Below the pieces are notes generated by a model. That model searched no databases. It had not been told where the DNA came from and saw only the letters and a program-made list of their open reading frames with translations. This document shows, piece by piece, positions 2,966 to 3,595 of a DNA stretch of 17,922 bases. The DNA is taken from UHGV virus genome UHGV-0157346, one strand, 5' to 3'. Both the position numbers and the translations under genes were made by a program. Source of the DNA: a virus. Every line of letters starts with the position of its first letter. Position 1 is the stretch's first letter.

Positions 2966-3402
2966 GCCGCCCTGTCTCCCCATCTTGCTTTCCACTCCAG
3001 AGCCAGTCGCGCTTCGTCTGACCACTTAACGCCACGCTCTGTACCGAATGCCTGTATAAGCTCTAATAGCTCCGCAAATTCGCTTACACGCATCCTGCTG
3101 GTTGACTGGCCTATTACCACAAAGCCATTCCCGGCAAGGTTAGGAACAACGTCCTGCTGCTTTAATGCTGCGGTAAACACACACTTCCAGCTTTCTGCAT
3201 CCAGCCAGCGACCATGCCATTCAACCTGACGAGAGACGTCACCAAGGCAAGCCCAAAGCTTTCGATTCTGGTCTAAGCTGCGGTTGCGTTCCTGAATGGT
3301 TACTACGATTGGTTTGGTTGGGTCTGGAAGAATTTGCTGTACCGCGTGAATAGCGTTTTGCTGATGTGCTGGGGATCGAATTTCAAAGGTTAGTTTTTTC
3401 AT
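2962..3402 (-). CDS. ninB: NinB recombination protein
   Basis: 146 aa, the same length as lambda NinB, with matching sequence as recalled ([21 protein letters not shown]...). Confidence 0.85.
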
Positions 3403-3595
3403 GACTTCCCTCTCTAACAGATTTCAGGTTATTCCACTCCGTTACCGCACTGCGATAATTCGCGGCCGCCACAGCAGCGTGGTTAGCGCAGTAGATTTGG
3501 CACCCGTTCTCCATGTCGAATATTGTCGGTGATTTTCCGCATTTACATTTCTTGGCACGCGGTGCGTCTGAACACATTCCGTTAACGGTGTCCAT
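3383..3595 (-). CDS. Hypothetical Cys-rich small protein, 70 aa
   Basis: ORF with an AGGGG ribosome-binding site 7 nt upstream; motifs CKCGKSPTIF...CQIYCANH; first gene after the terminator at 3621-3650; overlaps the ninB start by 20 nt. Confidence 0.5.
   Translation of the reverse strand: MDTVNGMCSDAPRAKKCKCGKSPTIFDMENGCQIYCANHAAVAAANYRSAVTEWNNLKSVREGSHEKTNL

What the first reader, a model, noticed from the sequence alone, without database searches (positions are those of the whole stretch)
3383..3595. Cys-rich 70-aa ORF as the first gene after the tR2-like terminator
A small protein with CxC and CxxxC spacing (CKCGKSPTIF...CQIYCANH) follows the terminator and overlaps the ninB start. It is a possible zinc-binding regulator of unknown role whose expression would depend on N-mediated readthrough of the terminator.
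Basis: inference. Interest (0 to 1): 0.28.

Follow-up and report, generated by a model that had tools for sequence, protein, structure and literature searches.

The report
Known small Cys-rich phage gene (HK97 gp60)
The 70-codon Cys-rich reading frame is a real, selectively maintained but optional gene of lambda-like phages, already catalogued as HK97 gp60 with no known function; it sits as a one-gene insert between the lambda-type tR2 terminator and ninB.

Summary
Window 3595..3383 encodes a 70-aa protein with 5 Cys. It starts 22 nt after an intrinsic terminator and overlaps ninB by 20 nt.

It is 100% identical to HK97 gp60 (PHROG 6308, "unknown function"). It has no match in Pfam, NCBIfam, PADLOC or PDB sequences.

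It is a genuine gene. Against homologues of 77-84% protein identity, differences fall 4/6/35 on codon positions 1/2/3. The frame is intact in all 79 IMG/VR prophage copies that could be read.

The family is very small, with only three real clusters among 1.84 billion representatives. It is also optional: 15 of 248 phage records that share the ninB junction carry it.

The terminator is the true homologue of lambda tR2, embedded in a NinA-like mini-ORF. Relative to lambda, gp60 is a ~200-bp cassette inserted between tR2 and the ninB ribosome-binding site. A lambda-type N gene and a nutR site with lambda's boxB are present, so N-dependent expression is plausible but untested.

C8, C17, C19, C32, C36 and H39 are invariant, and a moderate-confidence model gives three strands plus a helix. 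This fits a zinc-ribbon-like domain but does not prove it.

Lar-family genes occupy the same slot elsewhere, but homology to Lar is not statistically supported. "Regulator" has no support. Low interest.

The parts
3383..3595 (-). 70-aa Cys-rich ORF, identical to HK97 gp60 (PHROG 6308). The conserved core is residues ~2-58; the last ~10 codons read into the ninB ribosome-binding site and start.
   Evidence: ORF list. PHROG 6308, E 3.7e-54, covering 1-70/70. 100% protein identity to HK97 gp60, HK544_049 and others. Codon-position differences of 4/6/35 against homologues.
3603..3608 (-). Shine-Dalgarno-like GAGGGG, 7 nt upstream of the ATG of the 70-aa ORF. It lies in a G-run whose length varies between prophages.
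   Evidence: Sequence read directly and alignment. Diverged homologues carry GGAG at equivalent spacing.
3617..3651 (-). Intrinsic terminator, the homologue of lambda tR2: stem-loop 3651..3627 plus T-tract 3626..3617.
   Evidence: Terminator scan. Fold dG -12.6, z -3.3. Flanks are identical to those of lambda tR2 while the stem sequence differs yet still pairs. Exact copy in 69 of 80 IMG/VR loci.
3582..3680 (-). 32-codon NinA-like mini-ORF (HK97 gp56, CUS-3 'ninA', PHROG 5907) that contains the terminator. Its ATG overlaps the helicase stop (ATGA), and its 3' end overlaps the gp60 start by 14 nt.
   Evidence: The lambda counterpart is the 26-aa [26 protein letters not shown]. PMC4824070 states that tR2 lies 30 bp after the NinA AUG. 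Whether it is coding is undetermined: its polymorphisms show no codon-position bias.
3415..3617 (-). Approximate extent of the single-gene cassette that is absent from lambda. It lies between the tR2 T-tract ('TTATTGG') and the ninB ribosome-binding site ('GAGAGGGAAGTCATG').
   Evidence: Comparison with lambda 40549-40679. Other phages match the window only up to ~3414. The last 32 nt of the ORF are shared with more than 1000 E. coli genomes that lack the rest.
2962..3402 (-). ninB (Orf-family recombination mediator). It overlaps the 70-aa ORF by 20 nt.
   Evidence: Pfam NinB E 1.1e-54; PHROG 72.
3677..6070 (-). Upstream gene: DnaB-type replicative helicase of 797 aa, interrupted by an intein carrying a LAGLIDADG homing endonuclease.
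   Evidence: Pfam DnaB, DnaB_C, LAGLIDADG_3, Hom_end. The HK97 homologue is 458 aa.
7685..7716 (-). nutR: boxA CGCTCTTA (7716..7709) and boxB GCCCTGAAAAAGGGC (7699..7685), downstream of cro on the PR transcript.
   Evidence: 0 expected by chance for boxB. That these are lambda's own boxA and boxB sequences is from my knowledge of lambda, not from a tool result.
9391..9774 (+). N antiterminator gene (lambda type), with nutL boxB at 9255..9269.
   Evidence: PHROG 271 E 2.4e-26; Pfam N36 E 2.2e-26; boxB.

Best explanation
The ORF is a genuine but optional accessory gene of lambdoid phages, the HK97 gp60 family.

Anatomy. It is a ~200-bp single-gene cassette with its own Shine-Dalgarno sequence. 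It is inserted between the tR2 terminator (which lies inside the NinA mini-ORF) and the ninB ribosome-binding site.

Expression. The cassette has no promoter of its own. It should therefore be transcribed only as part of the delayed-early PR transcript, by N-modified RNA polymerase that reads through tR2. Its stop lies 20 nt inside ninB, which keeps the 'chain of interlinked genes' typical of nin regions.

Product. It is a soluble protein of about 58 conserved residues: an N-terminal loop, three short beta-strands and one C-terminal helix. Six Cys/His residues are invariant. The most likely metal site is C17-x-C19 plus C36-x-x-H39, a degenerate zinc ribbon.

Likely role. My best guess is that it works as a small protein-binding module against a host or competitor factor (anti-restriction, anti-defence or host takeover). 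This is what other optional genes in or near this slot do or are named for: Lar-family genes (by family annotation) and lambda Ren (from my own knowledge).

Basis of each step:
- Shown: gene reality, selection, cassette boundaries, homology of the terminator to tR2, presence of N and nut.
- Inferred: N-dependence, zinc binding.
- Speculative: the anti-defence role.
For: Identity: 100% identical to HK97 gp60; PHROG 6308 E 3.7e-54.

Coding:
- Against four diverged homologues (L004-L007), differences at codon positions 1/2/3 are about 4/6/35 of 57 codons. dN is 0.06-0.07 with dS saturated.
- Among the diverged homologues (L004-L007, L010) dN/dS is 0.07-0.32 over the 57-codon core and 0.10-0.39 over all aligned codons.
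- The ORF is intact in all 79 IMG/VR loci that could be read.
- The homologues have strong GGAG ribosome-binding sites.

Cassette:
- Lambda has ...ninA/tR2-TTTATTTGG-GGGAGAGGGAAGTCATG(ninB). The window has the same flanks with ~200 nt inserted.
- The NinA/terminator/gp60 unit follows at least five different upstream genes.
- Only 15 of 248 phage records and 146 of 1208 E. coli genomes that share the ninB junction carry the gene.

Expression logic:
- Terminator; no minus-strand promoter-like site between 3383 and 3680.
- N gene, nutR and nutL present.
- In lambda, all genes past cro depend on N antitermination and the nin region is dispensable (PMC10695390).
- tR2 works even when it lies 30 bp after the NinA AUG (PMC4824070).

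Protein:
- Invariant C8, C17, C19, C32, C36, H39 and NYRSAVxEWN.
- AF2 core pLDDT 71-79, with strands 24-28, 31-36 and 40-44 and a helix at 47-62.

Slot:
- Lar-family genes sit at the same site. L009 (Lar) and L010 (gp60-like) have identical flanks.
- In L005, gp60-like, Lar and NinB genes lie in tandem.
Against: - No experimental datum on transcription, translation, metal content or phenotype was found for any member (literature).
- Only one of five AF2 models reached pLDDT 67; the first run gave 55.
- No Pfam, NCBIfam, PADLOC or PDB sequence hit.
- The anti-defence idea rests on position only. Tandem occurrence with Lar in L005 argues that the two are not redundant.
- CxC and CxxxC spacings are atypical for zinc ribbons.
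- Translation of the NinA-like ORF through the hairpin could modulate termination independently of N.
Confidence: 0.55

Rival explanations
1. It is a diverged member of the Lar family. It would be a zinc-ribbon-plus-helix protein that alleviates type I restriction or enhances modification, as Lar of the Rac prophage does.
For: - Same order of elements as Lar: Cys knuckle, beta-hairpin, second knuckle, then a helix carrying A-x-x-x-W-N (AVTEWNN against AALAWNRR).
- Lar genes occupy exactly the same slot. L009 and L010 share both flanks but carry Lar and gp60-like genes respectively.
- P0017 (gp60-like) and P0035 (Lar) end in the same 16 residues, because both read into the same downstream module.
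Against: - hmmscan of 7 family members against Pfam PF14354 gave no hit, even with the reporting limit set at E 10 (HMMER's filters drop most matches above about 0.1).
- hhalign of the two family profiles aligns only 7-9 columns, with probability below 1% and P about 0.1-0.2.
- The CPxCG and CxxCG knuckles are replaced by CxCG and CxxxCxxH.
- gp60-like and Lar genes occur in tandem in L005, which suggests different functions.
- The shared C-terminal tail reflects mosaic junctions, not common descent.
Confidence: 0.15
2. It is a zinc-finger nucleic-acid-binding regulator of phage or host gene expression.
Against: - Net charge is not conserved (pI 6.0 and 5.5 in homologues).
- There is no hit to any DNA- or RNA-binding family.
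- The gene is absent from most phages that have the same N/Q/cI circuitry.
Confidence: 0.1
3. It is an accessory factor of the NinB/Orf recombination mediator, co-translated with it and acting in phage recombination.
For: - It overlaps ninB by 20 nt.
- 70 of 79 IMG/VR copies are followed by NinB.
- Diverged homologues also precede NinB (L006), a distant NinB-like gene (L004 and L007; Pfam NinB E 7.7e-5) or Lar followed by NinB (L005).
Against: - Most NinB-encoding phages lack it: 233 of 248 phage records and about 88% of E. coli genomes with the junction.
- In L010 it precedes DUF1367, and in 5 IMG/VR loci an unrelated 60-aa ORF.
- The adjacency is explained by the slot lying at the first position of the nin region.
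Confidence: 0.1
4. It is a chance ORF in a non-coding spacer between the terminator and ninB.
For: RefSeq/PGAP leaves the interval unannotated in E. coli genomes. The family is tiny and matches no known domain.
Against: - Third-position excess of substitutions (4/6/35), with low dN and saturated dS.
- The frame and all Cys/His are conserved at 62% identity, with 67% nucleotide identity.
- The frame is intact in all 79 copies that could be read.
- A Shine-Dalgarno sequence is conserved in all lineages.
Confidence: 0.03

Closest known systems
HK97 gp60 (AAF31135) = CUS-3 ECRS218_0038 = HK544_049; PHROG 6308
   Same: 100% (HK97, HK544, HK446, mEp506) or 98.6% (CUS-3, IME10, HF4s) protein identity. 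Same position between the NinA-like ORF/terminator and ninB.
   Different: Nothing in the gene itself. The window differs only in its neighbours: the upstream helicase carries an intein, and the nin genes downstream differ.
Lar family restriction alleviation proteins (Pfam PF14354; prototype Lar of the E. coli Rac prophage)
   Same: Size (60-70 aa). Same order of elements: Cys knuckle, hairpin, Cys knuckle, helix. An A-x-x-x-W-N motif in the helix. Occupies the very same slot of the nin region in related phages.
   Different: No significant sequence or profile similarity. The knuckles are CxCG and CxxxCxxH instead of CPxCG and CxxCG. There are extra invariant Cys8 and Cys32. The two genes can occur in tandem. 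The activity of gp60 is unknown.
Lambda tR2 terminator inside the NinA mini-ORF
   Same: The window's 3680..3617 segment is homologous to lambda 40567-40630. It has an identical 5' part (ATGACCATCTACAT.ACTGAG.TAATAACAGG), a hairpin 29-30 nt after the AUG, and a T-tract ending TTATTGG (PMC4824070).
   Different: The stem sequence differs (AGGGGCTATT/AGTAGCCCTT against AGGCCTGC/GCAGGCCT), but both fold. In lambda the NinA stop overlaps the ninB ATG. Here the gp60 cassette is interposed, and the NinA-like frame ends inside it.
Lambda Ren, and 'morons' as defined for HK97/HK022 (Juhala et al. 2000; this comparison is from my own knowledge)
   Same: An optional, dispensable single gene at the boundary between the replication genes and the nin region. 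Mosaic distribution among lambdoid phages.
   Different: Ren lies upstream of NinA/tR2 and is unrelated in sequence. A classical moron carries its own promoter and terminator, and no promoter-like site was found for gp60.

Membership tests
HK97 gp60 family (PHROG 6308) | Full-length match to the family profile | tested here: met
   E 3.7e-54, residues 1-70 against profile 1-70/70. 100% identical to HK97 gp60 by tblastn.
HK97 gp60 family (PHROG 6308) | Position between the NinA-like ORF/terminator and ninB in a lambdoid early-right operon | tested here: met
   Annotated regions of HK97, CUS-3 and HK544. 70 of 79 IMG/VR loci are followed by NinB.
Lar_restr_allev (Pfam PF14354) | Score at or above the Pfam gathering threshold against PF14354 | tested here: not met
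   No PF14354 hit for the window protein at E<=1, or for 7 family members with the limit at E<=10. A true Lar next door in L005 is recognised.
Lar_restr_allev (Pfam PF14354) | Profile-profile similarity to Lar sequences | tested here: not met
   hhalign probability 0.3-0.7%, with only 7-9 columns aligned (AVxEWN / AALAWxR). The Lar profile used was a narrow enterobacterial subfamily.
Lar_restr_allev (Pfam PF14354) | Four-Cys zinc ribbon, CPxCG ... CxxCG | tested here: not met
   gp60 has C17-K-C19-G and C32-x3-C36-x2-H39. Lar sequences have CPFCG and CxxCG.
Lar_restr_allev (Pfam PF14354) | Alleviation of type I restriction or enhancement of modification | not testable with these tools
   Needs a plating assay of unmodified phage on EcoKI+ hosts.
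Zinc-ribbon fold | Two ligand pairs on knuckles flanking a beta-hairpin | tested here: inconclusive
   The AF2 secondary structure places C17/C19 before strand 1 and C36/H39 at the strand 2-3 turn. Zinc-ribbon proteins appear only as weak neighbours.
Zinc-ribbon fold | Stoichiometric bound zinc | not testable with these tools
   Needs metal analysis of purified protein.
Lambda tR2 / NinA element | GC-containing hairpin followed by a U-tract on the PR-sense strand | tested here: met
   (dG -12.6 kcal/mol, z -3.3).
Lambda tR2 / NinA element | Sequence-homologous flanks, and position ~30 nt after the NinA AUG and upstream of ninB | tested here: met
   Alignment with lambda 40559-40633; lambda NinA translation; PMC4824070 for the tR2-NinA relation.
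Lambda tR2 / NinA element | Termination in vivo, suppressed by N with nutR | not testable with these tools
   The components are present: N, nutR boxA/boxB, nutL. Function was not measured.
Moron (autonomous promoter-gene-terminator insert) | Own promoter upstream of the inserted gene | tested here: not met
   No sigma-70-like site on the minus strand between 3680 and 3383.

The most novel reading that the evidence does not exclude
gp60 defines a new, very narrow family of degenerate zinc-ribbon proteins (CxC...CxxH) that counteract a host restriction or defence system. It would be exchanged with Lar-family genes as alternative cassettes at a dedicated hot spot for small Cys-rich proteins, just downstream of tR2. 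Placement after tR2 would restrict its synthesis to N-antiterminated infection and keep it silent in the prophage.
Probability: 0.2. Interest if true: 0.45.

Novelty: already known. Interest (0 to 1): 0.2.

Why it matters
As it stands it matters little. The ORF has been in GenBank as HK97 gp60, within the HK97 genome record AF069529, and remains a "hypothetical protein".

Three minor practical points follow:
1. RefSeq/PGAP leaves this selectively maintained gene unannotated in E. coli prophages. 146 of the 5426 complete genomes searched carry it.
2. The site just downstream of tR2 and upstream of ninB is a swap point for small Cys-rich proteins, including Lar-family genes. That makes it a reasonable place to look for anti-restriction or anti-defence functions.
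3. The comparison with lambda gives natural evidence that tR2 is maintained as a structure: the stem sequence differs but pairing is kept.

If gp60 proved to be an anti-defence protein, it would add one small family to that catalogue.

Tried and rejected
- Family searches. Pfam, NCBIfam, PADLOC and PDB-sequence searches of the protein and its relatives returned nothing.
- Homologue searches. Two word-indexed searches (single sequence and profile) and one exhaustive HMMER search of 1.84 billion representatives found only the same ~17 clusters. The only real additions were P0008-type (83%) and P0017 (62%). Long Ala/Gly-rich repeat proteins (P0018-P0020) were dismissed as compositional.
- GTDB species representatives. 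Only a 15-residue chance match in a Clostridia MAG.
- First AF2 run (8 sequences, including a frameshifted member): pLDDT 55, discarded.
- Lar homology. hhalign in local, global and mact-0 modes was not significant. An attempt to broaden the Lar profile from IMG/VR returned only 7 loci.
- Literature. Searches for HK97 gp60, the nin region with anti-defence, and the Lar family found no functional study of this protein. Cheng, Court & Friedman 1995 could not be read.
- Coding status of the NinA-like ORF. Polymorphisms show no codon-position bias, so it stays undetermined.
- MAFFT global alignment of window against lambda misplaced the left block, so the two flanks were realigned separately.

Full report
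**Observation**

The ORF is real and sits at the stated coordinates, but on the minus strand. The ATG is at 3595..3593 and the stop at 3385..3383. It encodes 70 aa: [70 protein letters not shown].

Its 3' end overlaps by 20 nt the next gene, 2962..3402. That gene is NinB (Pfam E 1e-54).

Upstream on the same strand is an intrinsic-terminator-like element: stem-loop 3651..3627 and T-tract 3626..3617. Folded alone it gives -12.6 kcal/mol, z = -3.3, and none of 200 shuffles folds as well. A GAGGGG Shine-Dalgarno lies 7 nt before the ATG.

One correction is needed. [quoted passage not shown]

**Context**

The window is the immunity and early region of a lambdoid (pro)phage, with the early-right (PR) operon on the minus strand:
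- cro-like gene, then nutR
- cII (7312-7665)
- O (6067-7014)
- DnaB-type helicase of 797 aa carrying an intein (3677-6070)
- the mini-ORF with the terminator
- the 70-aa ORF
- ninB, ninE, ninF
- a Roi/Ant-like gene, YbcO, RusA, NinH
- Q (444-1067)

The repressor, a lambda-type N gene (9391-9774; Pfam N36 E 2e-26) and the PL genes are on the plus strand.

nutR has boxA CGCTCTTA and boxB GCCCTGAAAAAGGGC, which I recall to be lambda's own sequences. A nutL boxB lies at 9255-9269. No boxB match is expected by chance.

**What the ORF is**

It is 100% identical in protein to gp60 of HK97, and to the equivalent "hypothetical proteins" of HK544, HK446, mEp506, Salmonella phage 29485 and an Stx2c phage. 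It is 98.6% identical to those of CUS-3, IME10 and HF4s. It matches PHROG 6308 ("unknown function") end to end at E 3.7e-54.

It has no hit in Pfam, NCBIfam, PADLOC or PDB sequences. I found no paper that studies it. The object is therefore already catalogued but uncharacterised.

**Is it a real gene?**

Yes. More distant copies were recovered from assembled reads (L004-L007 at 77-84% protein identity, L010 at about 62%).

- Against L004-L007 the window copy is only ~74% identical in DNA. The differences fall 4/6/35, 3/6/36, 2/6/34 and 5/3/36 on codon positions 1/2/3 over 57 codons.
- dN is 0.06-0.07 while synonymous sites are saturated.
- Among the distant copies, dN/dS is 0.07-0.32 over the 57-codon core and 0.10-0.39 over all aligned codons.
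- Each distant copy has a strong GGAG ribosome-binding site.
- Of the 80 IMG/VR prophage loci kept (95 relatives were found), the frame is open in all 79 that could be read. There are 18 protein variants and a single Cys substitution, C32G.

**How widespread is it?**

Very narrowly.
- An exhaustive HMMER scan of 1.84 billion representative proteins found only three true clusters.
- Two word-indexed searches of 5.8 billion clusters found about 17 clusters, many of them truncated or frameshifted.
- No GTDB species-representative genome carries it.

It is also optional. 248 phage records share the ninB junction of the query, and only 15 carry the gene. 1208 of 5426 complete E. coli genomes match the last 32 nt, which belong to the ninB module, and only 146 hold the whole ORF. 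RefSeq/PGAP leaves the interval unannotated.

**The terminator is lambda tR2, and the gene is an insert**

Lambda 40567-40647 reads ATGACCATCTACATTACTGAGCTAATAACAGGCCTGCTGGTAATCGCAGGCCTTTTTATTTGGGGGAGAGGGAAGTCATGA. This is a 26-codon [29 protein letters not shown]. Its ATG overlaps the ren stop, and its stop overlaps the ninB ATG.

Li et al. (PMC4824070) state that lambda tR2 lies 30 bp after the NinA start codon and 16 bp before its stop. They also show that a terminator within the first 100 bp of a coding region works efficiently.

The window has the same first 31 nt (two mismatches), a hairpin at the same place, and the same T-tract end. The stem sequence differs, but both versions fold. 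This is natural evidence that the structure is what is maintained.

After the T-tract the window carries about 200 nt that lambda lacks (about 3617..3415). It then rejoins lambda at GAGAGGGAAGTCATGAAAAAACTAACC, the ninB ribosome-binding site and start.

The 70-aa gene is therefore a single-gene cassette placed between tR2 and ninB. Its last ~10 codons are simply the ninB leader read in another frame. This explains why the C-terminal tail varies with the downstream module.

The NinA/terminator/gp60 unit travels together. Its left boundary is the NinA ATG, and it follows at least five unrelated upstream genes. One locus, L062, has gp60 without the 5' arm of the hairpin.

**Expression (inferred)**

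- No promoter-like site lies between the terminator and the ORF.
- The gene lies in the PR operon downstream of nutR, and a lambda-type N is encoded.
- In lambda, all genes past cro depend on N antitermination, and the whole nin region is dispensable (PMC10695390).

Translation of the NinA-like ORF through the hairpin could add a second layer of control. Its coding status is open, because its polymorphisms show no codon-position bias.

**The protein**

C8, C17, C19, C32, C36 and H39 are invariant in every full-length member, including the 62%-identical P0017. So are G20, I25, F26 and N46-YRSAV-x-EWN55.

A first AlphaFold run was useless (pLDDT 55). A second, with P0017 in the alignment, gave pLDDT 67 and pTM 0.53, with 71-79 over residues 11-60. 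It shows strands 24-28, 31-36 and 40-44 and a helix at 47-62, but only one of the five models was this good.

In that topology C17xC19 precedes strand 1 and C36xxH39 forms the turn between strands 2 and 3. These are the two knuckle positions of a zinc ribbon. I could not inspect the coordinates.

Fold searches gave no significant neighbour:
- BFVD: best E 0.027, an unnamed 121-aa phage protein, TM 0.58.
- Foldseek against PDB: nothing.

Zinc binding is thus plausible (I put it at about 0.6) but not shown. Net charge is not conserved (pI 8.3, 6.0, 5.5), which does not favour a nucleic-acid-binding regulator.

**Comparison with Lar**

By eye the protein resembles Lar-family restriction-alleviation proteins (PF14354): similar size, knuckle-hairpin-knuckle-helix order, and AVTEWNN against AALAWNRR.

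The genomic evidence for a shared slot is clean.
- In L005 a gp60-like gene, a Lar gene and ninB lie in tandem.
- In L008 and L009 a Lar gene follows the same PF26207 gene that precedes gp60-like genes in L004 and L007.
- L009 and L010 share both flanks at 95-96% identity. Between them L009 carries Lar, whereas L010 carries another small Cys-rich ORF plus a gp60-like gene.
- The gp60-like P0017 and the Lar protein P0035 even end in the same 16 residues, because both read into the same downstream gene.

Homology itself fails every test I could run.
- No PF14354 hit for any of 7 members, even with the reporting limit at E 10.
- hhalign aligns only 7-9 columns, at under 1% probability.
- The CPxCG and CxxCG signatures are absent.

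I therefore do not file it under Lar. What remains is that the site just after tR2 is a swap point for small Cys-rich accessory proteins, one family of which alleviates restriction.

**Mechanism and rivals**

My best account (0.55 overall) is as follows. It is an optional delayed-early accessory gene, transcribed only by N-modified polymerase reading through tR2, and translated from its own Shine-Dalgarno in the interlinked nin gene chain. It encodes a small, probably zinc-stabilised protein-binding domain, most likely directed at a host or competitor factor.

Rivals:
- Diverged Lar with restriction-alleviation activity (0.15).
- NinB accessory factor (0.10). It is adjacent to NinB-type genes in most lineages, but most NinB phages lack it.
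- Chance ORF (0.03), contradicted by the selection pattern.

**Verdict**

The terminator, N-dependence and a possible zinc site are supported; "regulator" is not.
- The gene is already known as an uncharacterised ORF.

Interest is low (0.2). The most novel reading still open is a new anti-restriction or anti-defence zinc-ribbon family exchanged with Lar at a post-tR2 hot spot. I give it about 0.2 probability and modest interest if true.

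Noticed in passing
window 3677-6070 (-): The DnaB-type replicative helicase is 797 aa because an intein with a LAGLIDADG homing endonuclease (Pfam LAGLIDADG_3, Hom_end, Hom_end_hint) interrupts it. 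The HK97 homologue is 458 aa. The same intein-bearing allele is present in 51 phage records, mostly Stx2a-converting phages. A second helicase type in IMG/VR loci also has a long (826 aa) form.
   Followed up: partly
window 3582-3680 (-); lambda NC_001416 40567-40647 (L104 1068-1148): A NinA-like mini-ORF (32 codons here, 26 in lambda) contains the tR2 hairpin. The peptide stays hydrophobic although the stem sequence differs between the two phages. The lambda RefSeq record used here does not annotate it. Polymorphisms among prophage copies show no codon-position bias, so it is unclear whether the peptide or only the RNA element is selected.
   Followed up: partly
L011-L013 3001-3297 (protein P0002); window 3603-3608: In a set of E. 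coli prophages (cluster of 20 member sequences; 24 contigs read, listed in 32 index blocks), the G-run that forms the gp60 Shine-Dalgarno is one base shorter. This fuses the NinA-like frame and gp60 into one 98-aa ORF with a hydrophobic N-terminus. The run length also varies (GGGG, GGGGG, or GATGGTG in CUS-3).
   Followed up: partly
L010 826-1059 (P0017) and L009 2073-2291 (P0035): A gp60-like protein and a Lar-family protein end in the identical 16 residues ANRDDQDRRGSIRSGV. Both cassettes read into the same downstream DUF1367 gene module. This is a clear example of a mosaic junction lying inside coding sequence.
   Followed up: yes
L010 614-823: Another small Cys-rich ORF (MGMFTCECEFCGKRRLKLF...FCNRECAKGF...) sits immediately upstream of the gp60-like gene, in the segment that replaces Lar. 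It was not called in the contig's gene list. This suggests the slot accumulates small zinc-ribbon-like proteins.
   Followed up: no
L102 1420-1693 and L103 1420-1693 (E. coli RefSeq chromosomes): PGAP annotates neither the NinA-like ORF nor the gp60 gene in RefSeq E. coli genomes. The interval between the upstream gene (helicase in L102, a hypothetical protein in L103) and the next gene is left empty, although the gp60 frame is under purifying selection.
   Followed up: yes
window 11151-11209 (+): Rfam Lambda_thermo (the cIII thermoregulator RNA element) matches at 88.5 bits, E 8e-21. The PL operon therefore carries a lambda-type cIII leader.
   Followed up: no
window 7685-7716 (-) and 9255-9269 (+): nutR (boxA CGCTCTTA plus boxB GCCCTGAAAAAGGGC, as I recall them for lambda) and a nutL boxB (GCCCTGAAGAAGGGC) accompany an N gene with the lambda N36 arginine-rich motif, although the replication and nin modules are HK97/Stx-phage-like.
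   Followed up: yes
L004 3451-3873 and L007 3047-3469: The 140-aa protein downstream of the diverged gp60-like genes is a distant NinB relative (Pfam NinB E 7.7e-5, just under the gathering score; motif SLPQNSLMWKW). It had no Pfam entry in the precomputed annotation.
   Followed up: partly
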